64,000 nt of DNA from assembly GCA_028716965.1 (NCBI GenBank), contig JAQUOV010000004.1, positions 8,377-72,376 on the forward strand, written 5' to 3'. The notes beneath the pieces are model-generated. The model saw only the letters and a list, made by a program, of their open reading frames with translations. It was not told the origin of the DNA and ran no database searches. Of this stretch, positions 9,024-58,160 are shown piece by piece (the first letter of the stretch is position 1; each line of letters starts with the position of its first letter). This stretch comes from Candidatus Omnitrophota bacterium. GTDB taxonomy: Bacteria > Omnitrophota > Gorgyraeia > Gygaellales > Profunditerraquicolaceae. The position numbers and the translations under genes were made by a program.

Positions 9024-9491
9024 ATGGACGCTTATATAGAATTATTAAAAGAGTCTTATTATAAAGAGCGTAAAAAGCTTGAGGGGATGTGGATTTTTAA
9101 TCAAGAAGGGAAGCTAAGATTTCTGGCGGCAAGAAAAGAGATGCTGGATAAGGCTAAAGAGAACCTTTCCATATCACAAATGTTAGGCCGGCAGGATATT
9201 ACAGAAGATATTAAGGAAAATTTACTGCGCGACCGCAATAATGCAGAAAAAATAGAGGAATATTTGAAGAAGGCTATTGAGGGCGAGTTTTCGAATATTG
9301 AAAATGATGAAAAGGCGGAATTGAGGAACTCACAATATTCTTGCGATGATTACGCGGAATATGTATTGCAGATAGAGAAGGTAAATGCCCTGGAGGCGGA
9401 ATTAGAAAATAACCGTATGTTCTCTGATGCGGTTTATGAAGAGCAGAAAGCAATTGCCGAAGGTAAGAATAAAACAGGAGGTGGGGAATGA
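9024..9491 (+). CDS. Hypothetical coiled-coil protein
   Basis: 155 aa, charged and K/E-rich, no recognisable motif. Start overlaps the next gene, suggesting co-translation with the SPFH protein. Confidence 0.5.
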   Translation: MDAYIELLKESYYKERKKLEGMWIFNQEGKLRFLAARKEMLDKAKENLSISQMLGRQDITEDIKENLLRDRNNAEKIEEYLKKAIEGEFSNIENDEKAELRNSQYSCDDYAEYVLQIEKVNALEAELENNRMFSDAVYEEQKAIAEGKNKTGGGE

Positions 9492-15410: not shown

Positions 15411-16468
15411 GTGCGACAAAAATAATAAAAATCAATCCGGTTTTGCCTGAAGAGGAGTATATCAGCCAGGCAGCTAAGGTTATTGCAGATGGCGGTCTGG
15501 TGGTTATCCCCACGGAGACTGTTTATGGTATTGCGGCCAATGCCTTGGATAAAAATACTTTGGATAAACTTTATGAGATTAAAAAGCGGTCAAAGGATAA
15601 GCCTTTTGCTTTGCTCATTGCGGATAAGATTAAGGTTGATGAACTTGCAAGCGATATACCGGTTGCTGCGTATAAATTAATGCATAAATTCTGGCCCGGG
15701 CCTTTGACAATTTTATTGAAGGCGCCAAGCGGCGGTAAGGTGGGGTTGCGTATGCCGGATGACCAGGTTGCTTTGAAGATTGTTGAGCGTTCAGCTGTTC
15801 CCGTAGCCTGTCCTTCGGCAAATATTTCGGGTTCTGCTGCCCCGGTTAACTTTGCAGAGGCGATTAAGGATATGAATGGCTTGGTAGAGCTGGCGCTTGA
15901 CGCCGGGGAAGCAAAAATAGGGATGGAATCCACTATTGTAGATTTAAGCGTTGAGCCGCTTAAAATAACAAGGAGCGGCTCAATAAAAGATGAAGAGATA
16001 AACGCGGTTGTAAAATCCAGGACCGTACTCTTTATCTGCACGGGAAACTCCTGCCGTTCGGTAATGGCCGAGGCGTATTTAAAAAAGCTCCTGGAAGAAC
16101 AGAAAAGGAGCGATGTGGAGGTGTTCTCCGCGGGGGTAATGATCCTTGCCGGGCTTGGCGCAAGCACAGAGACCAGGCAGGTATTGAAGAACGAAGGCAT
16201 GGATGTAAGTGCTCACCGTTCGCAAAGATTGACCAGGGAGATGGTGGACAGGTCCGATATCATACTGGTAATGGAGCCCATGCATGAGAAAAGGGTGCTT
16301 GAGCTTGCGCCGGAAGCAATGAACAGGCTTTTTTTATTGAAGGAATTTGCTAAAATGGATGATAATGATTTGGATATTGTTGACCCTATAGGAGGGTCGC
16401 TTGAGTTTTACGAGGATACTTTTCGCACAATTAAAGATGCCGTAGAAAGGATAAGTAAAATCATATGA
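15407..16468 (+). CDS. Threonylcarbamoyl-AMP synthase (TsaC/YrdC) fused to low-molecular-weight protein phosphatase (YwlE-like)
   Basis: N-terminal YrdC/Sua5 domain (VIPTETVYGIAANA). C-terminal LMW-PTP domain with P-loop CTGNSCRS and DP motif. Matches B. subtilis ywlC + ywlE fused into one ORF, followed by rpiB-glyA as in Bacillus. Confidence 0.85.
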   Translation: MSATKIIKINPVLPEEEYISQAAKVIADGGLVVIPTETVYGIAANALDKNTLDKLYEIKKRSKDKPFALLIADKIKVDELASDIPVAAYKLMHKFWPGPLTILLKAPSGGKVGLRMPDDQVALKIVERSAVPVACPSANISGSAAPVNFAEAIKDMNGLVELALDAGEAKIGMESTIVDLSVEPLKITRSGSIKDEEINAVVKSRTVLFICTGNSCRSVMAEAYLKKLLEEQKRSDVEVFSAGVMILAGLGASTETRQVLKNEGMDVSAHRSQRLTREMVDRSDIILVMEPMHEKRVLELAPEAMNRLFLLKEFAKMDDNDLDIVDPIGGSLEFYEDTFRTIKDAVERISKII

Positions 16469-16926: not shown

Positions 16927-18170
16927 AACATTTAAAACAGATTGACCCGGAGATTTACGCAGCGATTAAGAAAGAGATGCAGCGCCAGGATGAGAACCTT
17001 GAGTTGATCGCCTCGGAGAACTTTGCTTCTTTGGGAGTGTTGGAGGCCCAGGGCTCTGTGTTGACCAATAAATATGCCGAGGGATATCCCGGCAGGCGCT
17101 GGTATGGCGGGTGTGAATATGTAGATACCGCAGAGAGCCTTGCTATTGAACGGGCCAAAGCAATATTCGGCGCAGAGCACGCCAATGTCCAGCCGCATTC
17201 AGGTTCGCAGGCGAATATGGCGGTGTATTTTGCGGCGATAAAACCGGGAGATACGGTCCTGGCTATGGATTTAGCTGCCGGAGGCCACCTCACCCACGGC
17301 CACCCGCATAATTTCTCCGGGATGTTTTATAAGATCGTCGGTTACGGCGTGGACAGGAAAAGCGAAACCCTGGATTATGATGCCATCCTTGAGCTTGCCA
17401 AAACACATAAGCCGAAGATGATACTGGCAGGCGCCTCGGCGTATCCAAGGACAATTGATTTTAAGAAGTTCCGCCAGATCGCTGACAGCGTCGGGGCGTA
17501 TCTATTCGTGGATATGGCGCATATCGCAGGGCTGGTCGCTGCCGGGGTTCATCCTTCTCCCGTACCTTACGCGGAGTTTGTTACCTCTACTACGCATAAG
17601 ACCTTGCGCGGCCCGCGCGGCGGGTTTATCCTTTGCAGGAAAGAGTTTGCCAAGAAAATAGACAGCCAGATCTTCCCCGGGATACAGGGGGGGCCGTTGA
17701 TGCATGTGGTTGCCGCCAAAGCCGTGGCATTTGCCGAGGCAATGACGCCGGAGTTTAAGCAATACCAGGCCCAGCTGGCTGAAAATGCCAGGGAGTTAGC
17801 AAAGGCTTTGGAGAAAAAAGGCTTTCGCATCGTATCCGGAGGCACGGATACGCATTTAATGCTCGTAGATCTGAATGCCAAAAATATTACCGGCTCCGAT
17901 GCTTCAAGGATTTTAGGGCAGGTAAATATTACGGTAAACAAGAACCTTATACCTTTTGATCAGAAGTCTCCGCTTGTAACAAGCGGTATCCGCCTGGGCA
18001 CGGCGGCAGTAAGCACGCGCAAGATGAAAGAGGCGCAGATGCAGAAGATCGCCGGTTTAATCAACGATGCGCTGGAAAACCAGGCCGATATGAATAAATT
18101 AACTGAAATCAAAAAGGAAACGATCGCTTTAGCCAGAAAGTTTCCGCTATATCCGGAGCTATTGAAATAA
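16923..18170 (+). CDS. glyA: Serine hydroxymethyltransferase
   Basis: 415 aa. PLP-site [19 protein letters not shown] and [10 protein letters not shown] motifs. Confidence 0.92.
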
Positions 18171-18251
18171 TATGAACCCCTCGCCTTCTGTAAATTTAAC
18201 TATTGAAGCCATGGGGTTTAATGAGCTGACTAAGGAAGAAGGTGCGGGATG
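18171..18251 (+). repeat. Family A junction element, copy A1 (short derivative of the GIY-YIG cassette)
   Basis: Left arm TATGAACCCCTCGCCTTCTGTAAATTTAAC, right arm GAAGGTGCGGGATGA. Contains in-frame micro-[29 protein letters not shown] whose TGA overlaps ATG 18249 of the downstream gene. Confidence 0.75.
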
Positions 18252-18710
18252 AAAAAGAGCAGAACTATACATAAGCGCCCTACGTGGGATGAATATTTCC
18301 TGGAGATGGCAGGCTTGGTTGCCAAAAGGTCAACCTGCCTGCGCCGCTCTGTTGGTGCGGTATTGGTAAGAGAAAAAAGAATTTTGGCTACCGGTTATAA
18401 CGGCGCTCCCAGCGGTTTGAAGCACTGTGTTGAAATCGGCTGTATACGCCAGCAGTTAAAGATACCTTCCGGAGAACGCCATGAATTATGCCGCGCCTTA
18501 CATGCAGAGCAGAACGCGCTTATCCAGGCCTGCCTGCACGGCATAAGCGTAAAAGGCGCAACTTTATATGCCACTAATCAGCCGTGCGTTATCTGCGCCA
18601 AGATGCTCATTAACGCCGGGATAAGGGAGATCGTAATTGCCGAAGGCTACCCGGACAAAATGGCGATGAGCTTCTTAAGGCAGGCAAAGATAAGAATAAG
18701 GAAAATATGA
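18249..18710 (+). CDS. Deoxycytidylate (dCMP) deaminase, ComEB-like
   Basis: 153 aa. CDA-fold zinc motifs HAEQNA and PCVICAKML; N-terminus KRPTWDEYF typical of dCMP deaminases. Stop TGA lies inside the left arm of element A2. Confidence 0.8.
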
Positions 18711-19011
18711 ACCCCGCACCTTCTTTAAATTCAATAATGTACCATGCGTATCTTCTTAAAAGTAAAAAGAATGATACTTTTTATATTGGATATACAAATA
18801 ATATTGAAAGAAGGTTAAAAGATCATAGCTCCGGGATAGTTGAATATGCAGGGAAATATGTGCCTTGGGAAATAGTGTATTATGAAAGCTCTATTTCCTT
18901 GGTTGATGCTAATCAAAGGGAGAGATCTCTTAAATCTTTTGGGAGGGCATATTCAGGTTTAAAACTTAGAATTAAAAATAGCTTGAATAAGAAAGAAGGT
19001 GCGGGGTGAAG
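18704..19011 (+). mobile_element. Family A full-length element: TIR-flanked YhbQ-like GIY-YIG cassette (putative autonomous copy)
   Basis: Left end ATATGAACCCCGCACCTTCTTTAAATTCAA and right end TTGAATAAGAAAGAAGGTGCGGGGTGAAG are inverted complements (16-bp perfect core ACCCCGCACCTTCTTT). The ends enclose a 100-codon GIY-YIG ORF. Confidence 0.75.
18707..19009 (+). CDS. GIY-YIG nuclease superfamily protein (UPF0213/YhbQ-like)
   Basis: 100 aa. [32 protein letters not shown] matches the GIY-(x10)-YIG plus conserved R/H catalytic region of YhbQ-like proteins. Conserved EGAG near the C-terminus as in E. coli YhbQ. ATG overlaps upstream TGA (ATGA); its TGA overlaps the nrdR GTG (GTGA). Confidence 0.8.
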
Positions 19012-19473
19012 TGTCCGTTTTGCGGATATAAAGAGGATAAGGTCGTGGACTCCCGCGCTACAGCCGAAGAATCGGCAGTCAGGCGCAGAAGGGAATGCCT
19101 GAAATGCGGCAAGCGTTTCACTACTTATGAGTATGTTGAAGAGGTCTCTTTGTTAGTGATCAAGAAAGACGGCCGCAGGGAGGCCTTTGACCGTAAAAAG
19201 ATCTTAGCCGGTATAATCCGCGCCTGCGAAAAGCGTCCGGTGAGCGTGGAAAAGATGGAAGGGGTAGTTGTCCAGGTTGAGCATGCCATCCAGAAGAAAA
19301 GTGACCGCGAGGTTTTGTCCAGCAGGATAGGGGAGCTGGTTATGGAGAAGCTTAAGCAGATTGATGATGTTGCTTATGTGCGCTTTGCCTCGGTCTATAG
19401 GCAGTTTAAGGACGTGGGGCAGTTTATGGTGGAGTTGAGGGATATTTTGGGCAAAGATAAGAAGAAGAAATAG
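19006..19473 (+). CDS. nrdR: Transcriptional repressor NrdR
   Basis: 155 aa. N-terminal zinc ribbon MKCPFCG...CLKCGKRFTTYE plus ATP-cone; GTG start supplied by the element A2 right arm. Confidence 0.9.
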   Translation: MKCPFCGYKEDKVVDSRATAEESAVRRRRECLKCGKRFTTYEYVEEVSLLVIKKDGRREAFDRKKILAGIIRACEKRPVSVEKMEGVVVQVEHAIQKKSDREVLSSRIGELVMEKLKQIDDVAYVRFASVYRQFKDVGQFMVELRDILGKDKKKK

Positions 19474-24928: not shown

Positions 24929-25578
24929 GCGTAAATAAAATATTAAAGACTTTAAGATTAATTGAAGCTCAGGTCAAAGATTATATCATCCCTTCGGTTA
25001 CCCGGGTTTCTAAAAGCAAAGACCCTTACCGCGTCTTAATCTCCTGCCTGCTTTCGCTGCGCACAAAAGACAAAACTACGATTAATGCCAGCCAAAGATT
25101 GTTTAAGGTTGCGGACAGCCCGGAAAGTATGCTAAAATTAACTGTTGGAAAACTCCGGAGGTTGATCTACCCTGTAGGTTTTTACCGCAATAAAAGCAAG
25201 GTAATCTTAAGTTTAAGCAGGAGGTTAATTGAGGAATATTCCGGCAAGGTCCCGGGCTCATTGCATGCCCTTTTAGGGTTAAACGGCGTAGGCAGGAAAA
25301 CAGCTAACCTGGTTTTAGGTTTGGGTTTTGGTATCCCGGCAATCTGCGTGGATACGCATGTGCACAGGATATCAAACCGTCTGGGCTGGGTAAGCACAAA
25401 TAATCCTGAAGAGACAGAACTTGCCCTGCAAAAGATTATTCCCAGGGGGAAGTGGATCAAGTTAAATACCATCCTGGTAAGTTTCGGGCAGAATCTATGT
25501 TTTCCGGTTTCGCCATTTTGCAGCAGGTGCGATGTTTACGGGTTTTGTAAAAGAAGGGGCGTGGGTAAATCGCGTTAA
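24925..25578 (+). CDS. nth: Endonuclease III-like HhH-GPD base-excision glycosylase
   Basis: 217 aa. HhH motif LLGLNGVGRKTANLVL, catalytic region VDTHVHRI, C-terminal 4Fe-4S Cys cluster CxxxxxxCxxCxxxxxC. Confidence 0.8.
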   Translation: MSVNKILKTLRLIEAQVKDYIIPSVTRVSKSKDPYRVLISCLLSLRTKDKTTINASQRLFKVADSPESMLKLTVGKLRRLIYPVGFYRNKSKVILSLSRRLIEEYSGKVPGSLHALLGLNGVGRKTANLVLGLGFGIPAICVDTHVHRISNRLGWVSTNNPEETELALQKIIPRGKWIKLNTILVSFGQNLCFPVSPFCSRCDVYGFCKRRGVGKSR

Positions 25579-40699: not shown

Positions 40700-41614
40700 A
40701 TGAAGATCAAATATTGGGTTTTGCTTTCGCGCGCCCCGTTCTTAAGCGTGGTTATCCTGCCGTTTGTTTTGGGCACGCTGCTGGCGCAGCGCCTTACGGG
40801 AAAATTTAACCCGGCAATCTTCTTCTTAGGATTATCAGGTGCTATACTTATACAATTATCCGCCCACTATAGCGGAGAGGTTTATGATCTAAAAGAAGAC
40901 CGCCTGGCCGGGGCTTTAGGCAAAAGCCAGTTTAGCGGCGGCAGCCAGGTACTGGTGGATAATTTAATCCCCGGGGGAAAAGTAAAGGCTTTAATATATG
41001 CGGTTATTGCGCTGGCCCTGGCAATAGGGGCGATCCTGCAGTTTTATTTTAAAACCGGGGGATCTACTCTCCTCTTGGGCATTTCAGGGATGATCTGCGC
41101 TTTATTCTATTCTAAGCCTCCGTTGCGCTGGGTAAGCCGTGGTTTAGGCGAGATTTTAATTGCCTATAGCTTCGGCCTTTTAGCCGTAAATACCGCATTC
41201 TATATCCAGGTTTCCAGGTTTGATATTTCAGCTCTTTTCATATCCCTGCCTATTGCTTTTTCCGTGGCAAATATAATATTGATTAATGAATACCCGCATT
41301 ACCGGGCGGATAAAGAGGCAGGCAAAGAGAATCTATTGGTGCGCATAGGAAAAGAAAAAGGGGCTTTTCTTTATACATTGCTTGTTGTCTGCGCGGGGGC
41401 AGCTTTTTGCCTGGCTTTGACCAAGTCCCTGCCTATGGAGAGCGCCTTATTTTATTTCCCGGTATTAATTACTGCCGTGATCCTGGCATATTTAATGCTT
41501 AGAGGCGCATATGAAAATAGGCTCTTGCTTGAAAGAATGTGCGCGATGACTATCCTGGTTAATTTAGGGACTTGTTTTTCTTGTATATTGGGGTTATTGA
41601 TAAGCAAGGCATGA
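40700..41614 (+). CDS. UbiA-family prenyltransferase (MenA-like)
   Basis: 304 aa polytopic membrane protein. UbiA-type Asp-rich region (YDLKEDRLAG) and NEYPHYRADKEAGK second motif. Confidence 0.75.
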   Translation: MKIKYWVLLSRAPFLSVVILPFVLGTLLAQRLTGKFNPAIFFLGLSGAILIQLSAHYSGEVYDLKEDRLAGALGKSQFSGGSQVLVDNLIPGGKVKALIYAVIALALAIGAILQFYFKTGGSTLLLGISGMICALFYSKPPLRWVSRGLGEILIAYSFGLLAVNTAFYIQVSRFDISALFISLPIAFSVANIILINEYPHYRADKEAGKENLLVRIGKEKGAFLYTLLVVCAGAAFCLALTKSLPMESALFYFPVLITAVILAYLMLRGAYENRLLLERMCAMTILVNLGTCFSCILGLLISKA

Positions 41615-45797: not shown

Positions 45798-47715
45798 GGC
45801 CGCAAGCCTCCTTACTTCTTTTCTGCCTTTAAATGTGAGCCTGTTTTTTGGCAGGAGGCTGGGGGACCTTATTTATTTCTTTGATGCCCGGCACCGCGGG
45901 ATCGCCTGCGCCAATATCAGGAGGGCCATAGTAATGAATAATGACTTCCTGCAGGCCCGCAAGATAACACGCAGGGCTTATCAGTCTTTTGGCCAGAACC
46001 TTATAGAGATTTCTTTTATCCCGCGCATAAATAAAAAATATCTTGATAAATTCATCCATATTGAAAACAGGCAGTATATTGATGAAGCCTTTAAAAGGGG
46101 CAAAGGGGTAATCTTTCTGGCTGCCCATGAAGGTAATTGGGAGCTTTCTAATATTATCTGTGCCAACCTGGGTTTTTCGTTTATCCTGTTTGTCCGCGAC
46201 CAGGGTTTCGTGCGGCTAAACGCCCTGCTTAATTCTTACCGGCTTAAGCAGGGCGCAAAGATTATCCATAAAAAAACCGGGCTGCGCCAGTTGATTGATG
46301 TGCTTGAAAGCAACCAATCCATAGGCATGACCGTTGACCAGGGGGGCAAGCACGGAGAGGTAGTGAATTTCTTTGGCAAATCCGCCTCGATGTCTACCGG
46401 TGCGGTGAAGCTGGCCCTGAAACATGACTGTTCCATAATCCCTGTTTTTTATACGCGCATAAAAGGGCCTCATACTAAAGTTATCCTGGATCAGGTTTAT
46501 ACGGTAAGCAAAAGCGGGGACCTGCAAAGGGACCTGCGCGATAACCTGGAGAGGCTGGTCAATATTTACGAGAAATATATCCGGCAATACCCCCACGAGT
46601 ATCTCTGGACTTATAAAATTTGGAAGTATGGCAAAGAAAAAGATATCCTCATTCTTTCCGACGGTAAGGCCGGGCACCTGCGCCAGTCTGAAAGCGTAGC
46701 TAAGTTAGCCAGCCGGAAATCAGCTGCCCGGGGGGTAAAGACTACTTTGTCTATTTGCGAAGTGAAATTCCGCACCAGCCTGCGCAGGTTTATATTCAGC
46801 CGGATGGTTGTACTATGCGGCAGGCATCAATACCATCTCTGCCTGCGTTATCTGCGCTATGCGCTGGAGGCAGCAAGCTGGCAGAGTTTGATCGGTTTCA
46901 AGCCCGATATTGTTATTTCCGCAGGGGGTAAATTGAGCGGGGTAAATTATATGCTGGCTAAAATAAACCAGGCTAAATCAATTGTCCTGATGCGTCCGGC
47001 AGCCCTAAACCCAAAGGGATTTGACCTGGCAATTATTCCCGAACACGATATGCCGCAGGGCCGTGGTTTGGCTTTCAGGAAAAATATAGTACTAACCGAA
47101 GGGGCGCTTAATTTGGTGGATGCGGATTATCTAAGAGAAAGGTCAGAGAGGCTGCAGCAGTCAGGTTTTTTGAAAGGGCCTTTGTTGAAACCCTGTATCG
47201 GAGTTTTGATCGGCGGCAATAGCAGGAAGTTTTCAATTACCCGGCAGGCGATAATAGAACTGGCAGGTCAAATCAAGGGGGCTGCTGAAAAGCTTGATGC
47301 GGATATCCTCTTATCCACCTCGCGCCGTACGCCGCCTGAAATAGAACAGCTGCTTAAAAATGAATTTGAAGCTTATCCGCGCTGCAGGCTTTTAATTATT
47401 GCCAATGAAAGAAATCATCCTGATGCCGTAGGCGGCATACTGGGGTTAAGCAGGGTAATTGTCAGTTCGCCGGAGAGCATCTCCATGATCTCCGAAGCGG
47501 TGGCGGCAGAAAGATATGTTATCGTATTTATGGCCTCCGGCCTTAGTATGAAGCATCGGCGTTTCTTGAAAAGTTTTCAGGACAAGAGGTATATATATAT
47601 AAAACAGGCTGGAGAGTTGTTTAGCTCCATTGAAGAGATATGGCAAAACCGTCCTGAGCTTAACTTTTCTGCGGATAACTCAAGGGTAAGCGCAGCTTTA
47701 GATAAAATACTATGA
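45751..47715 (+). CDS. Lipid A late acyltransferase (LpxL/HtrB family) fused to ELM1/DUF1022-like domain
   Basis: N-terminal half has the HX4D acyltransferase motif (AAHEGNWELS) and EYLWTYKIWKY motif of LpxL. C-terminal ~330 aa resembles the mitochondrial-fission ELM1 / DUF1022 glycosyltransferase-like family. Annotated start overlaps lpxK by 47 nt, so the true start may be later. Confidence 0.7.
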   Translation: MKQNLIADYLSCFLFRAASLLTSFLPLNVSLFFGRRLGDLIYFFDARHRGIACANIRRAIVMNNDFLQARKITRRAYQSFGQNLIEISFIPRINKKYLDKFIHIENRQYIDEAFKRGKGVIFLAAHEGNWELSNIICANLGFSFILFVRDQGFVRLNALLNSYRLKQGAKIIHKKTGLRQLIDVLESNQSIGMTVDQGGKHGEVVNFFGKSASMSTGAVKLALKHDCSIIPVFYTRIKGPHTKVILDQVYTVSKSGDLQRDLRDNLERLVNIYEKYIRQYPHEYLWTYKIWKYGKEKDILILSDGKAGHLRQSESVAKLASRKSAARGVKTTLSICEVKFRTSLRRFIFSRMVVLCGRHQYHLCLRYLRYALEAASWQSLIGFKPDIVISAGGKLSGVNYMLAKINQAKSIVLMRPAALNPKGFDLAIIPEHDMPQGRGLAFRKNIVLTEGALNLVDADYLRERSERLQQSGFLKGPLLKPCIGVLIGGNSRKFSITRQAIIELAGQIKGAAEKLDADILLSTSRRTPPEIEQLLKNEFEAYPRCRLLIIANERNHPDAVGGILGLSRVIVSSPESISMISEAVAAERYVIVFMASGLSMKHRRFLKSFQDKRYIYIKQAGELFSSIEEIWQNRPELNFSADNSRVSAALDKIL

Positions 47716-47794
47716 ACCTCGCACCTTCTAAGTATCCGACTATTAAAGGTATGAGGTTGAATGGATTTATTAAAGAGGAAGGTGCGGGGTGAAG
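47711..47794 (+). repeat. Family A junction element, copy A3
   Basis: TATGAACCTCGCACCTTCT ... GAGGAAGGTGCGGGGTGAAG. In-frame micro-ORF MNLAPSKYPTIKGMRLNGFIKEEGAG. Supplies the TGA stop of the upstream gene and the GTG start of the downstream gene. Confidence 0.75.
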
Positions 47795-49882
47795 ATACTG
47801 CAGATATTACCGGAGCTTAATGTGGGGGGAGTTGAGACCGGGACCCTGGATTTATCTAAATACCTTGTGCGCCTTGGGCATAAGGTAGTAGTGGTTTCTG
47901 CCGGCGGAAAACTGGTGGAAGAACTTCAGGCATGCGGCGCCAGGCATTACACTCTGGCAGTGCATAAGAAATCAATCTTTTCTATATTTAAATTGGTCCC
48001 AGTATTGGCGCAGATCATTAAACAGGAAGAGATTGATATCGTGCATGCCCGTTCGCGCGTACCGGCATGGATTGCTTATTTTGCCTGCCGCAGGACGCGG
48101 GCCGTATTTGTAACTACCTGCCACGGTTATTATAAAAAACATTTTTTCAGCCTGGTAATGGGCTGGGCCAAGAGGGTGATTGTTTTAAGCAATGTGATCG
48201 CCCGGCACATGATTGATGATTTCGCAGTGCCGCATGAGCGCATCAGGCTTATCCCGCGCAGCGTGGATTTAGAGAGGTTTAAATACCTTGACCCCAAGCT
48301 GAAAAGAAAAGATGAATTTAACGTGGGGATCATCGGCAGGATTACTCCTTTAAAAGGCCACTTGCATTTTATTAAAGCTATGGCGCGCATCTCCAGGATC
48401 GTCCCCCGTTTAAAGATCTGGATAGTCGGCGATGCCCCGGCGTCAAAAGAGGCGTATAAGGAAGAGGTGCAGGTGTTGGTGCGCCGGCTCGGGCTCTGGC
48501 ATTGCACAGAATTTTTGGGCACGCAGCGGGATATCCCGGGGATATTGGCGCATTTAGACCTTGTAGTTCTGGCTACTACAACCCATGAAGCATTCGGCAG
48601 GGTGATCGTTGAGGCCCAGGCTTCCGGCGTGCCGGTAGTAGCTACCAAAGTAGGCGGGGTAATCGATATTATTGAGGATGGGAAAAACGGGCTGTTAGTG
48701 CCTCCTGCCGACCACAAAAGTATGGCGGATGCCGTATTACGTATTTTTGAAGATACGCAGTTAGCTCAGAACCTGGCTGAAAATGCCTATATAAAGATTA
48801 AAGAAAAGTATACCGTAGAGTTGATGGTTAAAAATACCCTGGATGTTTACCGTGAAGCATTAAGCAATTTTAAGCTCCTGATAATCAAATTCAGTTCCCT
48901 GGGGGATATAATCCTATCCACGGCGGCATTAAGGGCAATATGGCAGAAGTTTTCCAAAAGCAATTACAAGATAAGTTTCCTGACCGGGGAGGAATCAAAA
49001 GAGGTGCTCTTAAGGAGCCCTTACATTGACGAGCTTTTGGTATGCGACCTGAAGAATAACGATAAAGGGCTAAAAGGTCTATGGGGTATCGGCAGTGTAT
49101 TAAGAAAAAAGCATTTTGATATGGTCATCGACCTGCAGAATAACCGGGCCAGCCATATACTTTCTTATTTAAGCGGCTGTATTAATTGCTACGGTTATGA
49201 CAACGGGAAGTTTTCCTTTTTGCTCCAGCACCGCATTAAAGACGAGAAGCCTCCTATTGACCCGGTAACGCACCAGTTCAGGATATTGAAGATGCTTGGT
49301 ATTGACCTTTTGGATAATGCGCTTGAGCTCTGGCCTTCTTCCGAAGACGTAAAACATATAGAGGAGCTTTTGAATGCCCAATGGTTAAGCCAGGCGCAGA
49401 AAATAGTAGGTATTAATATCAGCGCTTCCAAGAGATGGAGTACTAAGCTTTGGCCGCACCAGTACCTGGTGCGGCTTTGCGAGGAGCTGGGTATGCGCGA
49501 TATCCGCGTGGTAATCACCGGCACGGCCCAGGATTTAGGTGATGCAGAGCTGCTCGTAAACTCTCTTAAGGGCGCAAAGGTTATTAATGCCTGCGGGAAA
49601 ACCACTGTTAATGAGCTGGCGGTTTTAATTAAAAAATGCCATGTATTTATTTCAGCTGATTCTTCCCCTTTGCATATAGCATCGGCGGTGGGGACACCTT
49701 TTATCGCGCTCTTTGGCCCGACTGACGCCAGGCGGCATCTGCCTCCCGGCAAGGACCGCATTGTGATGAATAAGGATTTAAACTGCAGTCCTTGTTATAA
49801 AACTAAGTGCCGCTCTATGCGCTGTATGAAAGGTATTGCTCCGGATGAGGTGCTATCGGCGGTGGAAAAGTTGCTCAGATGA
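47789..49882 (+). CDS. Glycosyltransferase family 4 fused to family 9 (heptosyltransferase-like) domain
   Basis: N-terminal GT4 (MKILQILPELNVGGVETGTLDL...; EAFGRVIVEAQASGVPVVAT). C-terminal GT9 (LLIIKFSSLGDIILSTAALRAI ... SADSSPLHIASAVGTP). Confidence 0.75.
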   Translation: MKILQILPELNVGGVETGTLDLSKYLVRLGHKVVVVSAGGKLVEELQACGARHYTLAVHKKSIFSIFKLVPVLAQIIKQEEIDIVHARSRVPAWIAYFACRRTRAVFVTTCHGYYKKHFFSLVMGWAKRVIVLSNVIARHMIDDFAVPHERIRLIPRSVDLERFKYLDPKLKRKDEFNVGIIGRITPLKGHLHFIKAMARISRIVPRLKIWIVGDAPASKEAYKEEVQVLVRRLGLWHCTEFLGTQRDIPGILAHLDLVVLATTTHEAFGRVIVEAQASGVPVVATKVGGVIDIIEDGKNGLLVPPADHKSMADAVLRIFEDTQLAQNLAENAYIKIKEKYTVELMVKNTLDVYREALSNFKLLIIKFSSLGDIILSTAALRAIWQKFSKSNYKISFLTGEESKEVLLRSPYIDELLVCDLKNNDKGLKGLWGIGSVLRKKHFDMVIDLQNNRASHILSYLSGCINCYGYDNGKFSFLLQHRIKDEKPPIDPVTHQFRILKMLGIDLLDNALELWPSSEDVKHIEELLNAQWLSQAQKIVGINISASKRWSTKLWPHQYLVRLCEELGMRDIRVVITGTAQDLGDAELLVNSLKGAKVINACGKTTVNELAVLIKKCHVFISADSSPLHIASAVGTPFIALFGPTDARRHLPPGKDRIVMNKDLNCSPCYKTKCRSMRCMKGIAPDEVLSAVEKLLR

Positions 49883-49958
49883 ACCCCGTATCTTCTCTAT
49901 TTAACTATTGAAGCCCATACGGGTTAAAGAATTGGTTAAGAATGAAGGTGCGATGAAT
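49878..49958 (+). repeat. Family A junction element, copy A4 (degenerate)
   Basis: GATGAACCCCGTATCTTCTCTATTTAACTATTGAAGCC ... AAGAATGAAGGTGCGATGAAT. Frame broken by an internal stop; right arm runs in-frame into the ATG of the downstream GT4 gene. Confidence 0.65.
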
Positions 49959-54426: not shown

Positions 54427-55374
54427 GTGCTAAAATCATTGTCTATGATTGATCCAAAGAAGGTAAAAAGGTATTCTATCAAAACACGCTTCAGTAAGGT
54501 GAATGAGAAGGATTTTGCACTTAAGCCGGCTAAACTTAAGAGCTTCCGCGCCTTCTTAGATTCCTTGCCGGATATCCTTAAAGCCAGGGATTTGCGCGCC
54601 CTTTCTGCGGATGTCGCCTCGGCAGCCAGGAAGAAGAAGGCGGTGATTTTGATGGCCGGCGCGCACGTGATTAAGTGCGGGCTTAACCCGGTGTTAATAG
54701 AGCTGATGAGAAAGAAGGTAATCAGCTGTATCTGCCTTAACGGCGCCGGGATCATCCATGATTTTGAGATTGCCTTTCAGGGCAAAACATCCGAAGACGT
54801 TGCCGAAAACCTTAAAAACGGCAGTTTCGGCATGGGCAAGGAAACCGCGGATTTTATTAATCAGGCGGTTAAAGACGGGGTGAGCGAAGGCTTAGGCCTG
54901 GGCAGTTCCGTGGGAAAGATGATCTCCGATGAGAAATTGGCGTATAAGGATTTGAGCCTGCTTTATAACGCTTATAAATATAATCTGCCGGTATGCGTTT
55001 TCGTGGGGATCGGTACGGATATCATCCATCAGCATCCTTCATTTGACGCCGGTTTAACCGCCGAAGGCTCGTTGCGCGATTTCCACACTCTCGTCGAGAA
55101 GATAAGCTCGTTAAACAAAGGGGGAGTGGTTTTAAATTTTGGTTCAGCGGTGCTTTTACCCGAAGTATTCTTAAAAGCGCTTAACCTGGCGCGAAACCTC
55201 GGGAATAAAGTCAAGGATTTTACTACCGCCAACTTTGATATGATTTATCATTACCGGCCGGCGCAGAATGTGGTGAACCGTCCTACTCATTCAGGAGGCA
55301 GGGGCTATTACATTATCGGCCATCACGAGATAATGCTGCCGCTTTTAGCGCAGGCGGTCATCGAAAAAATATGA
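54427..55374 (+). CDS. Deoxyhypusine synthase-like family protein
   Basis: 315 aa. Segments CLNGAGIIHDFE, PVCVFVGIGTDIIHQ and GGVVLNFGSAV parallel the DHS/homospermidine-synthase fold motifs. Embedded within the LPS gene block. Confidence 0.5.
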   Translation: MLKSLSMIDPKKVKRYSIKTRFSKVNEKDFALKPAKLKSFRAFLDSLPDILKARDLRALSADVASAARKKKAVILMAGAHVIKCGLNPVLIELMRKKVISCICLNGAGIIHDFEIAFQGKTSEDVAENLKNGSFGMGKETADFINQAVKDGVSEGLGLGSSVGKMISDEKLAYKDLSLLYNAYKYNLPVCVFVGIGTDIIHQHPSFDAGLTAEGSLRDFHTLVEKISSLNKGGVVLNFGSAVLLPEVFLKALNLARNLGNKVKDFTTANFDMIYHYRPAQNVVNRPTHSGGRGYYIIGHHEIMLPLLAQAVIEKI

Positions 55375-55453
55375 ACCCCGCACCTTTTTTAATTTAGTTA
55401 TTATAAGGTGCAGGGGTTAGAATTCATGAATAAAGAGAAGGTGCGGGGTGAAG
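55370..55453 (+). repeat. Family A junction element, copy A5 (degenerate)
   Basis: TATGAACCCCGCACCTTTTTTAATT ... AAGGTGCAGGGG ... AATAAAGAGAAGGTGCGGGGTGAAG. Micro-ORF broken (MNPAPFLI stop); 1-nt deletion in the right arm. Confidence 0.7.
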
Positions 55454-57206: not shown

Positions 57207-58018
57207 TGCATGAGGTTAGCGCGGGGAATATAAAATTCGGGGCCGGCAATCCGCTCGTGCTTATTGCCGGGCCTTGTGTTATTGAGTCGGAAAGCTCATG
57301 CCTTAAGGCTGCCGGAAGGATTAAGGCGATCGTTTCTTCCTGCGGGGTCCCGTTTGTTTTTAAATCCAGCTTTGATAAGGCCAACCGGCTTTCCGGAGAT
57401 TCTTACCGCGGCCCGGGCCTAAGCAAGGGTTTGGTTATTTTGAAAAAAGTAAAGCAGCAGTTAAAGGTCCCTGTTTTAAGCGATGTGCACTGCGCAAAGG
57501 ATATGCCTGCGGCCGCTGAAGTGCTGGATATTATCCAGATACCGGCTTTTTTGTGCCGTCAGACGGATATTGTATTGGCAGCCGCAAAAACCGGCAAGGT
57601 GGTCAATATAAAGAAAGGCCAGTTCCTTGCGCCCTGGGATATTTTACCCATCATCAAAAAGGTGGAATCCGCCGGGAATAAGAAGATATTGATTACGGAA
57701 AGAGGGGTAAGTTTTGGTTATAATAACCTGGTTACGGATTACCGCAGCCTTTCGATTATGCGTAATTTCGGGTATCCGGTAATTTACGATGCTACCCACA
57801 GCGTGCAGCTTCCCGGCGGGAAAGGCACCTGTTCAGGCGGGCAAAGCGAATTTGTTGCGGGGTTATCCAGGGCAGCCGTAGCTTTCGGCTGCGACGGGCT
57901 GTTCCTTGAGGTGCATGTTGACCCTAAAAGCGCGCCTTGCGACGGAGCGAACATGATTAATTTCAGCAAGCTGGAAGCCTTATTGAAACAAATCAGAAAG
58001 ATCGAGAGAGCATTATGA
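57206..58018 (+). CDS. kdsA: 2-dehydro-3-deoxyphosphooctonate aldolase (Kdo-8-P synthase)
   Basis: LIAGPCVIES, DATHSVQLPGG and KGTCSGGQSEF motifs of KdsA. Confidence 0.9.
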   Translation: MHEVSAGNIKFGAGNPLVLIAGPCVIESESSCLKAAGRIKAIVSSCGVPFVFKSSFDKANRLSGDSYRGPGLSKGLVILKKVKQQLKVPVLSDVHCAKDMPAAAEVLDIIQIPAFLCRQTDIVLAAAKTGKVVNIKKGQFLAPWDILPIIKKVESAGNKKILITERGVSFGYNNLVTDYRSLSIMRNFGYPVIYDATHSVQLPGGKGTCSGGQSEFVAGLSRAAVAFGCDGLFLEVHVDPKSAPCDGANMINFSKLEALLKQIRKIERAL

Positions 58019-58160
58019 ACCCCCGCACCTTCTGTAAATTCAAGTATCAGGAGAATACGGCTTAATGATTTAAATAAGAATGAAGGTTCCGGGATAAGTT
58101 GGTTTGAGGTTAAGATTTAAGATTTGAATGAATTCATAGGAGGAAGGTGCTGGGTGAAGA
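58014..58160 (+). repeat. Family A junction element, copy A6 (with duplicated right arm)
   Basis: TATGAACCCCCGCACCTTCTGTAAATTCAAG ... AATAAGAATGAAGGTTCCGGGATAAG ... GGAGGAAGGTGCTGGGTGAAG. Extra C breaks the micro-ORF frame. Confidence 0.7.

What the first reader, a model, noticed from the sequence alone, without database searches (positions are those of the whole stretch)
18704..19011. TIR-flanked YhbQ-like GIY-YIG gene inserted seamlessly between two operon genes (putative autonomous selfish cassette)
Left end ATGAACCCCGCACCTTCTTTAAATTCAA (from 18707) and right end TTGAATAAGAAAGAAGGTGCGGGGTGAAG (to 19011) are inverted complements, with a 16-bp perfect core ACCCCGCACCTTCTTT. They enclose a 100-codon ORF carrying the GIY-x10-YIG motif ([16 protein letters not shown]) of the UPF0213/YhbQ nuclease family. 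The cassette ATG overlaps the TGA of the dCMP-deaminase gene (ATGA, 18707-18710). Its own TGA overlaps the GTG of nrdR (GTGA, 19006-19009). The palindromic ends therefore encode the protein termini (NPAP mirrored by GAG) and donate stop, RBS and start to both neighbours. No GIY-YIG element with TIRs that lives inside operon junctions is an established mobile-element class that I know of.
Basis: partly seen in the sequence, partly recalled or inferred. Interest (0 to 1): 0.9.

Follow-up and report, generated by a model that had tools for sequence, protein, structure and literature searches.

The report
Start-codon-hijacking GIY-YIG mobile element family
A tiny nuclease gene bounded by inverted repeats, plus five gene-less 80-bp derivatives in the same window, has inserted exactly at the start codons of operon genes; it takes over the old start and hands the host gene a new ribosome site and start, which looks like a previously undescribed kind of bacterial mobile DNA.

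Summary
Window 18707-19009 is a 303-bp element: a 100-aa GIY-YIG nuclease ORF (Slx1/UPF0213-like) that spans the element from end to end, with perfect 16-bp inverted ends. It overlaps the dCMP-deaminase stop (ATGA) and the nrdR start (GTGA).

In the closest relative both the deaminase|nrdR and glyA|deaminase junctions are empty. They read ...TATGAAGTGT and ...TAATATGAAAAAG, exactly as predicted by removing the elements and one TGAA repeat.

About 65 elements in Omnitrophota and Planctomycetota MAGs follow the same rule. The host ATG becomes the element's start. The right end supplies a Shine-Dalgarno-like GAAGGTG and, joined to the duplicated TGAA, a new GTG start.

The short copies are internal-deletion derivatives, and their mini-ORFs stay open far more often than chance allows. 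The nuclease is under purifying selection. Its ends are conserved as DNA and co-vary between subfamilies.

No described element class matches. That the nuclease itself drives mobility is inferred, not shown.

The parts
18707..19009 (+). Copy F: nuclease-bearing element, 303 bp. One ORF of 100 aa runs from its first base to its last.
   Evidence: ORF. PF01541 E=3.4e-12. AlphaFold model: GIY-YIG core pLDDT >90 for residues 11-90; residues 1-10 and 95-100 are low-confidence coil. The orthologous junction is empty in L082.
18711..18726 (+). Left terminal inverted repeat, ACCCCGCACCTTCTTT. It encodes the N-terminal tail N-P-A-P-S.
   Evidence: Perfect 16-nt inverted repeat. Invariant at synonymous sites among copies whose ORF cores are 69-75% identical.
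18992..19007 (+). Right terminal inverted repeat, AAAGAAGGTGCGGGGT. It encodes the C-terminal tail K-E-G-A-G, carries the SD-like GAAGGTG, and supplies the first bases of the new GTG start of nrdR.
   Evidence: Its SD-to-start spacing is the same as the native GGAGGTGgggaATGA at 9488.
18708..18711 (+). Left copy of the direct repeat TGAA (putative target-site duplication). Its TGA is the deaminase stop codon.
   Evidence: Sequence. The empty site in L082 has a single TGAA.
19007..19010 (+). Right copy of the direct repeat TGAA. Its TGA is the stop codon of the element ORF and overlaps the GTG start of nrdR.
   Evidence: Sequence. The base after the right-hand TGA is A in 59 of 63 elements.
18172..18252 (+). 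Copy A: 81-bp mini-element between glyA (TAA at 18168-18170) and the dCMP deaminase (ATG at 18249). Intact 26-codon mini-[29 protein letters not shown].
   Evidence: nhmmer E=1.7e-17. Empty sites in L082 (AAATAATATGAAAAAG) and L004.
47712..47792 (+). Copy B: 81-bp mini-element. The upstream 654-aa ORF stops at its left TGA; the downstream 697-aa ORF starts at its right GTG. Intact mini-ORF.
49879..49956 (+). Copy E: 78-bp mini-element with a diverged left arm (CCCCGTATCTTC) and a broken ORF. Its right end supplies the ATG at 49953 for the downstream gene.
   Evidence: An internal arm (ATACGGG) complements the diverged left arm.
55371..55451 (+). Copy C: 81-bp mini-element with a broken ORF and a strong internal arm (AAGGTGCAGGGGT) complementary to the left arm.
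58015..58157 (+). Copy D: composite. A decayed mini-element (58015-58092) is followed by a second right end (58135-58157), which supplies the GTG at 58154 for the downstream gene.
18249..18710 (+). Host gene: dCMP/cytidine deaminase, flanked by copy A upstream and copy F downstream.
   Evidence: PF00383 E=3.1e-26. 80 orthologous loci were examined.
19006..19473 (+). Host gene: nrdR. It now starts at a GTG built from the element end plus the duplicated target.
   Evidence: PF22811 and PF03477. Orthologues mostly start at the ATG of a plain ATGA overlap.

Best explanation
This is a family of small mobile DNA elements.

Anatomy.
- The full-length form is about 300 bp and consists of one gene for a ~100-aa stand-alone GIY-YIG nuclease of the Slx1/UPF0213 lineage.
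- That gene is translated across both of its 13-16-bp terminal inverted repeats (CCCCGCACCTTCT...AGAAGGTGCGGGG).
- The short forms (about 55-130 bp, with a mode of 81 bp) are internal-deletion derivatives that keep only the ends.

Insertion site (shown by sequence). Elements sit at the sequence ATGAA of a gene's start codon, always in the sense orientation, flanked by a direct repeat TGAA.

Consequences of that geometry (shown by sequence).
1. An upstream gene that used the overlapping TGA keeps its stop.
2. The host's ATG, together with its ribosome site or translational coupling, now starts the element's own ORF. The element therefore needs no promoter or RBS of its own.
3. The element ORF stops at the right-hand TGA.
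4. The host gene receives a new GTG start, made of the element's last G plus TG of the repeat. It is preceded at native spacing by the SD-like GAAGGTG of the right repeat.

The operon is thus left intact while the nuclease is expressed with it.

Inferred steps.
- The left repeat can pair with the right repeat and mask the new SD. Translation through the element ORF probably keeps the downstream gene expressed. This would explain why the mini-ORFs stay open and in frame.
- The nuclease probably recognises the repeat ends, as a duplex or as an extruded hairpin or cruciform as Slx1-type enzymes do, and makes the cuts that move both full-length and short copies. A staggered cut at TGAA would be filled in to give the duplication. 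The joining step would be done by host functions.
For: Insertion polymorphism with exact boundaries.
- L082 (flanking proteins 89% and 95% identical) has AAGTATGAAGTGT and AAATAATATGAAAAAG where the window has copies F and A.
- The pattern is reciprocal in L004: it has a mini at Sua5|rpiB, where the window has a plain ATGA, and no mini at glyA|deaminase.

Multi-copy family.
- There are 6 copies in 64 kb, all in sense orientation.
- An 18-mer scan of genome contigs gave 73 loci, about 45 of them true elements. They are almost all in Omnitrophota, with a few in Planctomycetota MAGs.

Junction rule.
- In 56 of 63 elements an ORF of at least 100 codons starts at the right RTG.
- In 38 of 63 an ORF of at least 100 codons ends at the left TGA.
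- The base after the right TGA is A in 59 of 63 elements, against 10 of 19 unoccupied RTGA starts in the window.

Many sites. Nuclease-bearing copies occupy five different operon junctions.

Ends selected as DNA.
- The TIR-coded ends are 92-97% identical at the nucleotide level, while the ORF core has dS of 1-2 and dN/dS of 0.10-0.18.
- The arms co-vary between subfamilies: ATCCCGCCCCTCCTT / AAGGAGGGGCGGGAT in L165 and TCCCGCACCATTTTT / AAAAATGGTGCGGGA in L172.
- The tails encoded by the TIRs lie outside the folded domain.

Deletion derivatives.
- L015 and L078 keep the last 51 nt of the nuclease gene, 42-43 of 51 identical.
- The mini profile matches F at model positions 1-33 and 52-82.

Mini-ORF maintenance.
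- Length is divisible by 3 in 42 of 57 minis (p=6e-10).
- 28 of those 42 are open throughout, against 18.5% expected (p=1e-11).

Hairpin and protein family.
- The L-R hairpin is the minimum-energy fold of most minis, -22 to -36 kcal/mol.
- The closest solved structures are UPF0213 proteins and SLX1, a structure-specific nuclease.
Against: - No transposition, excision or cleavage event was observed directly; everything is comparative.
- GIY-YIG enzymes are hydrolytic and no strand-transfer activity is known for them, so the integration chemistry is unexplained.
- No identical copies were seen within one genome. The best interior identities are 79-86%, so recent activity is not demonstrated.
- The window copy has S41 and A48 where at least 90% of relatives have N and T, so it may be decaying.
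- A test for sense-strand hairpin selection was negative: G.U 8 against A.C 9.
- The link between a broken mini-ORF and a strong internal decoy arm is only marginal: Mann-Whitney p about 0.05, Fisher not significant.
- Restriction to start codons could result from selection after random ATGAA insertion rather than from targeting.
- All genomes are MAGs or metagenome contigs, so copy numbers per genome are unknown.
Confidence: 0.7

Rival explanations
1. The nuclease is a free-standing homing endonuclease gene that invaded a pre-existing palindromic repeat. The short elements would be an independent repeat family, moved by something else or not at all. The nuclease would spread only between genomes at cognate sites, by cleavage followed by recombinational repair.
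For: - GIY-YIG enzymes are classic homing endonucleases (PMC1564403).
- The deaminase|nrdR junction is occupied by divergent nuclease copies (56-65% identical) in three host lineages, each nested among relatives with empty sites. Homing through flanking homology would produce that pattern.
- Nuclease-bearing copies are rare compared with short ones: 1 to 5 in the window, and about 3 of 45 in the genome scan.
Against: - Intermediate-size elements retain nuclease coding sequence: the last 51 nt in L015 and L078. The short forms therefore descend from the nuclease-bearing form, not the reverse.
- The ends co-vary with the nuclease subfamily across deep divergence.
- Nuclease-bearing copies occupy at least five unrelated junctions whose only shared sequence is ATGAA. 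Homing endonucleases normally need long specific sites.
- Terminal inverted repeats and target duplications are not features of homing.
- The nuclease belongs to the Slx1-like lineage, not the lineage that contains known homing enzymes.
Confidence: 0.13
2. The elements are ordinary MITE or IS-type transposons moved in trans by an unlinked conventional transposase that recognises the same inverted repeats. The GIY-YIG gene would be passenger cargo, or an accessory or addiction factor.
For: - No strand-transfer chemistry is known for GIY-YIG nucleases.
- MITEs are normally mobilised by an IS with matching ends (PMC10969869).
- Only 8-kb pieces of the other genomes were available, so such an IS could have been missed.
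Against: - Every element above 135 bp carried a GIY-YIG ORF, its frameshifted remnant, tandem minis, or short non-transposase sequence. None carried a transposase.
- The nuclease ORF is not loosely carried. Its start and stop lie in the target duplication and its termini are the repeats themselves, in at least three subfamilies and in a sister lineage.
- The nuclease is under purifying selection, dN/dS 0.10-0.18.
- No other copy of the ends or of the nuclease was found in the 64-kb window.
Confidence: 0.12
3. Nothing here is mobile. The hairpins would be host regulatory or translational-coupling devices with a leader peptide, and the GIY-YIG protein an ordinary repair gene that happens to sit in the operon.
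For: - The elements are transcribed within operons.
- Their mini-ORFs are maintained.
- Their right arm works as an SD mimic.
- E. coli YhbQ is annotated as a DNA damage response nuclease.
Against: - Presence or absence at orthologous junctions has exact boundaries and a 4-nt direct repeat.
- The same about 80-bp sequence lies between unrelated gene pairs in many genomes.
- Decayed, tandem and nested copies exist: D, L008, P0042, P0060.
- Most orthologous junctions do without it.
- No Rfam family matches.
Confidence: 0.03

Closest known systems
[quoted passage not shown]
   Same: - Terminal inverted repeats.
- A short target duplication.
- Many short non-coding-size copies that derive by internal deletion from a longer protein-coding copy.
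- Location in transcribed intergenic space.
- Chunjie shows that a MITE can sit inside an operon harmlessly.
   Different: - The only protein in the long form is a ~100-aa GIY-YIG nuclease, not a DDE, HUH, serine or tyrosine transposase.
- The ORF spans the whole element and is translated through both repeats.
- Insertion is at the start codon itself, in one orientation only.
- The element takes the host start and supplies a replacement SD and start.
- The 2024 MITE review mentions no GIY-YIG, start-codon or SD-donating MITE.
Free-standing GIY-YIG homing endonuclease genes (phage T4 seg genes, 'intronless homing'; from my own knowledge, plus the background section of PMC1564403)
   Same: - A small GIY-YIG nuclease gene lodged between conserved genes.
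- Patchy distribution among close relatives.
- Recurrence at the same locus.
   Different: - Homing genes have no inverted-repeat ends, no target duplication and no non-autonomous derivatives.
- They carry DNA-binding domains for long targets and have their own expression signals.
- This nuclease is a bare catalytic domain of the Slx1-like lineage.
- There is no tblastn match in 50,697 phage records.
REPIN-RAYT systems (PMC3116915, PMC3337134)
   Same: - Populations of short palindromic elements in intergenic regions.
- These are associated with a much rarer protein-coding copy flanked by the same repeats in inverted orientation.
- Long persistence within a lineage.
   Different: - RAYTs are HUH/Y1 transposases of the IS200/IS605 type.
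- REPINs do not insert at start codons, do not carry ORFs and do not donate translation signals.
- In REPIN-RAYT systems the protein gene sits between REP sequences rather than being translated through them.
Rickettsia palindromic elements (RPEs), which insert in frame into protein-coding genes (summarised in PMC10969869)
   Same: Short palindromic repeats whose insertion is made tolerable by preserving a reading frame; the repeat is itself translated.
   Different: - RPEs become part of the host protein.
- Here the element is translated as a separate mini-ORF, or as the nuclease, between two intact host genes.
- No enzyme-coding RPE is known.
Prokaryotic Slx1-like / UPF0213 proteins (BH0048 1zg2, EF2693 1ywl, E. 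coli YhbQ)
   Same: - The same minimal GIY-YIG fold and motifs (profile E=5e-11 and 2e-9; Foldseek).
- Similar size, about 100 aa.
   Different: - That lineage has been viewed as vertically inherited repair enzymes, not selfish ones (PMC1564403).
- E. coli YhbQ is a solitary gene, only 38% identical over 32 residues, and showed no obvious repeat ends when I read the sequence.

Membership tests
GIY-YIG nuclease superfamily (PF01541) | Profile match above the curated threshold | tested here: met
   E=3.4e-12, 46.9 bits against a cut-off of 22.6.
GIY-YIG nuclease superfamily (PF01541) | Conserved catalytic motif residues: Tyr of GIY, Tyr-Ile-Gly, central Arg, C-terminal Glu | tested here: met
   In 30 homologues Y12/Y15, Y26-I27-G28 and R36 are at least 90% conserved, and H40 and E60 are invariant. 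The window copy departs at N41S and T48A.
Prokaryotic Slx1-like / UPF0213 (YhbQ) lineage | Closest sequence and structure relatives are UPF0213 and SLX1 rather than UvrC or I-TevI; minimal stand-alone domain | tested here: met
   Sequence profile: 1zg2 E=5.4e-11, 1ywl 2.3e-9, SLX1 about 1e-5. Foldseek: 1zg2 and SLX1 at probability 1.00; I-TevI and UvrC at E>0.3.
Prokaryotic Slx1-like / UPF0213 (YhbQ) lineage | Orthology with E. coli YhbQ | tested here: not met
   Only 32 residues align, at 38% identity. No NCBIfam family reaches its threshold.
TIR transposon / MITE | Terminal inverted repeats | tested here: met
   16-nt perfect repeat in F. 310 of 336 arm positions are Watson-Crick over 24 distinct arm pairs.
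TIR transposon / MITE | Target-site duplication, verified against an empty site | tested here: met
   TGAA flanks both ends. The empty sites in L082 have one TGAA. A follows the right TGA in 59 of 63 elements.
TIR transposon / MITE | Multiple dispersed copies, with short copies derived from a longer coding copy | tested here: met
TIR transposon / MITE | Parent element encodes a transposase of a recognised class (DDE, DEDD, HUH, Ser, Tyr) | tested here: not met
   The only ORF is GIY-YIG. No other Pfam domain was found.
TIR transposon / MITE | Demonstrated transposition | not testable with these tools
   This needs a mobilisation assay or read-level population data.
Homing endonuclease gene | Nuclease cleaves the cognate empty allele at a long specific site and is copied in by recombinational repair | not testable with these tools
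   Indirect evidence only. For: the same junction is hit three times. Against: five unrelated junctions share only ATGAA.
Homing endonuclease gene | No terminal repeats, no target duplication, no non-autonomous derivatives | tested here: not met
   All three are present.
REPIN-RAYT | Associated protein is a RAYT (HUH/Y1 transposase) | tested here: not met
   The protein is GIY-YIG.
Known structured RNA family (Rfam 15) | Covariance-model match | tested here: not met
   No hit at gathering threshold in the window, and none at E<=1 in 18100-19100.

The most novel reading that the evidence does not exclude
A new class of prokaryotic transposable element whose sole protein is a ~100-aa Slx1-like GIY-YIG nuclease translated through its own terminal inverted repeats.

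- It targets the ATGAA of start codons, captures the host's translation start, and repays the host gene with an SD and a GTG start.
- It spawns MITE-like derivatives that persist as translated mini-ORFs.
- A large sister lineage uses the same ends to fuse the nuclease in frame to the G|FTLIE cleavage site of type IV pilin-like genes. The nuclease would then be made as a 'leader peptide' and released by prepilin peptidase.
- Together these would make the 'housekeeping' prokaryotic Slx1-like lineage a major reservoir of selfish elements in uncultivated bacteria.
Probability: 0.5. Interest if true: 0.92.

Novelty: categorically new. Interest (0 to 1): 0.86.

Why it matters
- **A new enzyme class for transposable elements.** Prokaryotic transposable elements are classified by their enzyme: DDE, HUH, serine, tyrosine, Cas1. 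A family moved by a bare GIY-YIG nuclease would add a class, and would show that the Slx1-like branch of that superfamily, so far regarded as repair enzymes, includes genomic parasites.
- **A new stealth strategy.** The insertion logic is a new answer to an old problem for selfish DNA in compact genomes. Introns splice out of RNA and inteins splice out of protein. This element instead makes itself translationally transparent by swapping start signals with its host gene.
- **Practical effects on annotation.** These elements shift start-codon calls to GTG, create 26-codon ORFs and 'GIY-YIG family protein' genes inside operons, and produce apparent nuclease-pilin fusion proteins in metagenomes.
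- **Testable translation biology.** The elements offer a natural set of insulated SD/start cassettes and a direct test of termination-reinitiation coupling.
- **Possible tool.** The nuclease and its ends could become a compact site-directed insertion tool if the mechanism is worked out.

Tried and rejected
1. **Sense-strand (RNA) folding constraint on the two ends.** I suspected this from two copies whose diverged left arms still pair with the right arm through G.U. Over 24 distinct arm pairs the non-Watson-Crick cells are G.U 8, A.C 9 and other 9. There is no asymmetry, so the idea was dropped.
2. **The internal M arm as a decoy that frees the SD when the mini-ORF is broken.** The M arm is real: 34 of 52 minis reach p<=0.05. 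Its link with ORF status is marginal (Mann-Whitney p about 0.05, Fisher p=0.78), so this is not claimed.
3. **Larger elements bounded by the same ends (a hidden transposase).** Only pairs up to 430 nt apart were scored. The list of unpaired ends was dominated by palindromic self-matches and was uninformative.
4. **Exact look-up of the window protein in the assembly index.** It found nothing when the stop codon was included in the query. The protein exists in the collection as P0001.
5. **Non-Omnitrophota hits in the 18-mer scan** (Actinomycetes, Chloroflexota, Bacteroidales and others). These lack a right end and were treated as chance or as an unrelated conserved gene. About 17 chance hits are expected by my arithmetic.
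6. **Phage relatives.** There is no tblastn match in the phage collection.
7. **Literature.** Ten full-text searches plus two targeted reads found no description of such an element. The library does not include most subscription-journal papers.
8. **The T at position -1 of the target.** It is partly forced by my search pattern, which began with T, and was not used.
Full report
**1. The observation**

Window 18707-19009 is an ORF of 100 codons. It matches Pfam GIY-YIG (PF01541) at E=3.4e-12. A perfect 16-nt inverted repeat, ACCCCGCACCTTCTTT, lies at 18711-18726 and 18992-19007.

The ORF's ATG shares ATGA with the stop of a dCMP/cytidine deaminase (18249-18710). Its TGA shares GTGA with the start of nrdR (19006-19473). 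Both neighbours were confirmed by Pfam, and glyA lies upstream.

The core, allowing up to 3 mismatches, occurs 13 times in the window against 0.75 expected; none of 100 shuffles reaches 13. The description is accurate.

**2.

The extra core matches form convergent pairs about 75 bp apart. Reading them and scanning with a profile gives five short copies, all on the + strand like the genes:

| Copy | Coordinates | Length |
|---|---|---|
| A | 18172-18252 | 81 bp |
| B | 47712-47792 | 81 bp |
| E | 49879-49956 | 78 bp |
| C | 55371-55451 | 81 bp |
| D | 58015-58157 | 143 bp: a decayed copy plus a second right end |

- Each copy begins ATGAACC... and ends ...GGTGCGGGRTGAA.
- In five of the six elements the upstream gene's stop is the TGA of the left ATGA. 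In copy A, glyA ends with TAA one base earlier.
- In all six the downstream gene starts at the right RTG.
- Copies A and B read as 26-codon ORFs, [26 protein letters not shown] and MNLAPSKYPTIKGMRLNGFIKEEGAG. Their termini are those of the nuclease, [10 protein letters not shown]...LNKKEGAG.

**3. They are insertions**

Eighty orthologous deaminase loci were fetched from metagenomes. Both junctions were classified in each.

- The closest relative, L082 (deaminase 89% identical, NrdR 95%), reads AAGTATGAAGTGT at deaminase|nrdR and AAATAATATGAAAAAG at glyA|deaminase. Deleting copies F and A together with one TGAA gives exactly these sequences.
- Most orthologues have the plain 4-bp overlap at deaminase|nrdR.
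- The pattern is reciprocal. L004 lacks a copy at glyA|deaminase. It has one at Sua5|rpiB, where the window has a bare ATGA at 16465.

**4. Breadth, and the rule of insertion**

The source is a Candidatus Omnitrophica MAG: P0001 is 100% identical and lies on a 204,696-bp contig.

An exact 18-mer scan of one genome per species returned 73 loci. About 45 of them have the matching right end 50-300 nt downstream. Nearly all are in Omnitrophota, with a few in Planctomycetota MAGs. The rest lack a right end and are consistent with the roughly 17 chance hits expected.

Among 63 distinct elements:
- An ORF of at least 100 codons starts exactly at the right RTG in 56. The start codon is GTG in 55, ATG in 7 and TTG in 1.
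- An ORF of at least 100 codons ends exactly at the left TGA in 38.
- The base after the right TGA is A in 59. Among unoccupied RTGA starts in this window it is A in 10 of 19. The duplicated target is therefore most likely TGAA and the target ATGAA.

In this window 6 of 16 such start sites are occupied.

Nuclease-bearing copies were found at five different junctions, always co-oriented and with the 4-bp overlap onto the downstream gene:
- deaminase|nrdR
- gcvPA|gcvPB
- RND adaptor|RND pump
- ABC ATPase|ABC permease
- HAD hydrolase|epimerase

**5. The ends are selected as nucleic acid and belong to the nuclease**

- Among three nuclease copies the ORF core is 69-75% identical, with dS of 1.0-2.0 and dN/dS of 0.10-0.18. 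The protein is therefore functional.
- The 42 nt that encode the termini are 92-97% identical, synonymous positions included.
- In the AlphaFold model (mean pLDDT 84.7) residues 11-94 form the GIY-YIG fold. Residues 1-10 and 95-100 are low-confidence coil. The tails MNPAPS and EGAG are translated repeat sequence, not part of the fold.
- Nearly all 30 aligned homologues (46-79% identical) carry both tails.
- Divergent subfamilies have compensated arms: ATCCCGCCCCTCCTT / AAGGAGGGGCGGGAT in L165 and ACCCCGCCCTTCC / GGAAGGGCGGGGT in L104.

**6. The short copies derive from the long one**

- L015 (126 bp) and L078 (123 bp) retain the last 51 nt of the nuclease gene, 42-43 of 51 identical. This stretch encodes LKLKIKNLLNKREGAG.
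- The profile built from the short copies matches copy F at model positions 1-33 and 52-82.
- Every longer element examined held a GIY-YIG ORF, a frameshifted remnant of one (L026:5845), tandem minis (L008), or short sequence unrelated to any transposase.

**7. How it fits into translation**

What the sequence shows directly:
- The host's ATG, with whatever ribosome site or coupling served it, now opens the element ORF.
- The right repeat contributes GAAGGTG, four bases before a GTG made of the element's last G plus TG of the duplication.
- This is the same layout as the native GGAGGTGgggaATGA at 9488.
- In subfamily L165 the right arm is a canonical AAGGAGG followed by ATG.

What I infer:
- The left and right arms pair in the minimum-energy fold of most short copies, -22 to -36 kcal/mol. 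That pairing would occlude the SD unless a ribosome is reading the element ORF.
- Consistent with selection for read-through, 42 of 57 short copies have a length divisible by three (p=6e-10). Of these, 28 are open throughout, against 18.5% expected from shuffled interiors (p=1e-11).
- Two thirds of the short copies also carry an internal arm complementary to the left arm (34 of 52 at p<=0.05). Its role is unresolved.
- A test for strand-specific (RNA) pairing constraint on the ends was negative.

**8. The enzyme and the likely mechanism of movement**

- The closest solved structures are the UPF0213 proteins BH0048 and EF2693, followed by SLX1, a structure-specific nuclease for branched DNA.
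- E. coli YhbQ is a distant relative only.
- The 2006 superfamily survey places 1ywl and 1zg2 in a prokaryotic Slx1-like lineage. It describes that lineage as minimal stand-alone domains inherited vertically, and derives the known selfish GIY-YIG enzymes from the other lineage (PMC1564403).

I therefore propose, as inference, that the nuclease recognises the repeat ends as a duplex or as an extruded hairpin or cruciform. It would then cut at their boundaries and at TGAA, moving both long and short copies, with host functions doing the joining. None of this was observed directly.

**9. Recurrent use of one junction**

On a neighbour-joining tree of deaminase plus NrdR, the three hosts that carry a nuclease at this junction (window, L093, L095) are each nested among relatives with empty sites. 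The tree rests on short proteins and has no bootstrap. The hosts are 87-92% identical in these proteins, while their nucleases are 56-65% identical. Two further lineages carry short copies at this junction (L103, L127).

This favours repeated arrival over a single ancestral insertion. It also keeps a homing-like component in play.

**10. Comparison with known systems**

- The element has the formal anatomy of a TIR transposon with MITE derivatives, but it lacks any recognised transposase.
- It resembles free-standing GIY-YIG homing genes in size and patchiness. Unlike them it has repeats, a target duplication and non-autonomous derivatives, and it belongs to a different GIY-YIG lineage.
- It resembles REPIN-RAYT systems in population structure but not in enzyme.
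- It resembles Rickettsia palindromic elements in being translated, but it does not fuse to host proteins.
- A 2024 review of prokaryotic MITEs mentions no GIY-YIG, no start-codon targeting and no SD donation (PMC10969869).
- Ten full-text searches found no description of such an element.
- No Rfam family matches, and there is no phage relative.

**11. Verdict**

- The 'selfish cassette' reading is supported and extended to a family with autonomous-size and miniature members.
- That these are insertions at start codons which preserve operon translation is well supported.
- That the nuclease is the mobilising enzyme is plausible but untested.
- I rate the finding as lying outside the known element classes, and of high interest.

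Noticed in passing
L161:453-745 and L172:1176-1490 (relatives P0077 and P0061); also P0069, P0078, P0081, P0083, P0085, P0087, P0094, P0098, P0107, P0116, P0118, P0125, P0128-P0130, P0134, P0136, P0137, P0139, P0142, P0143, P0157-P0160: Roughly a quarter of the top 110 family representatives are proteins of about 125-340 aa in which the GIY-YIG domain ends ...G[AEV]G and runs in frame into FTL[IVL]E, the prepilin-peptidase cleavage and methylation motif of type IV pilin-like proteins. In both examples checked, the nuclease part is bounded by the same kind of ends: ATGA|CCCCGCACCATT...AATGGTGCGGGG|TTTACT in L161 and ATGA|TCCCGCACCATTTTT...AAAAATGGTGCGGGA|TTCACT in L172. The upstream gene stops at the left ATGA, and L172 lies in a pilus gene cluster next to pilM. 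A sister lineage may express its nuclease as a cleavable pilin leader.
   Followed up: partly
L026:1461-1763 and L026:5845-6146: Two nuclease-bearing elements lie 4 kb apart in one Omnitrophota contig. They belong to different subfamilies. One is intact (MNPAPPKFYYVYML...EGGAG). The other is 302 bp and frameshifted, so it is a decaying copy.
   Followed up: partly
L008:5191-5365; proteins P0042, P0039, P0060: Tandem or nested copies. L008 has two short copies head to tail. P0060 reads as a mini-ORF fused to a nuclease copy (MNPAPSPRRLANRRRCG-MNPAPSP...). P0042 and P0039 carry an extra NPAP...GAG block inside the nuclease C-terminus. The elements appear to insert next to or into one another.
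   Followed up: no
L084:2955-3095 (deaminase|nrdR junction of a relative): A different 127-nt insert occupies the same junction. It has GGAAAGGTGACTGTCACG repeats and palindromes and an apparent duplication of the first codons of nrdR (ATGCGGTGT ... GTGCGGTGT). It may be another kind of junction-dwelling repeat.
   Followed up: no
L171:5207-5219 (E. coli K-12 yhbQ, NC_000913.3 3300206-3300218): E. coli yhbQ contains GAAGGCGCAGGGT, which encodes E-G-A-G followed by F. This resembles the element's right end GAAGGTGCGGGGT and the ...GAG|F junction of the pilin-fused lineage. It could be chance or a vestige of a domesticated element.
   Followed up: no
window 25553-25569 and 41532-41549: Two solitary right-end-like sequences, each 3 mismatches from the core: AAAGAAGGGGCGTGGGTAAA next to the 25578/25585 gene junction, and GAAAGAATGTGCGCGATGA. 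They may be relics of decayed copies. The profile search did not call them.
   Followed up: partly
window 18827-18850 (codons 41 and 48 of the nuclease ORF): The window's nuclease has Ser41 and Ala48 where at least 90% of 30 homologues have Asn and Thr, and Ala14 and Ser62 where the consensus is Val and Phe. This particular copy may be less active or decaying, although BH0048 also lacks the Asn.
   Followed up: partly
window 1-64000: All but about seven of 67 sketched ORFs of at least 80 codons lie on the + strand. Stop/start overlaps of 4 bp (ATGA or GTGA) are frequent: eight are unoccupied. This compact, co-directional gene layout offers many potential target sites.
   Followed up: no
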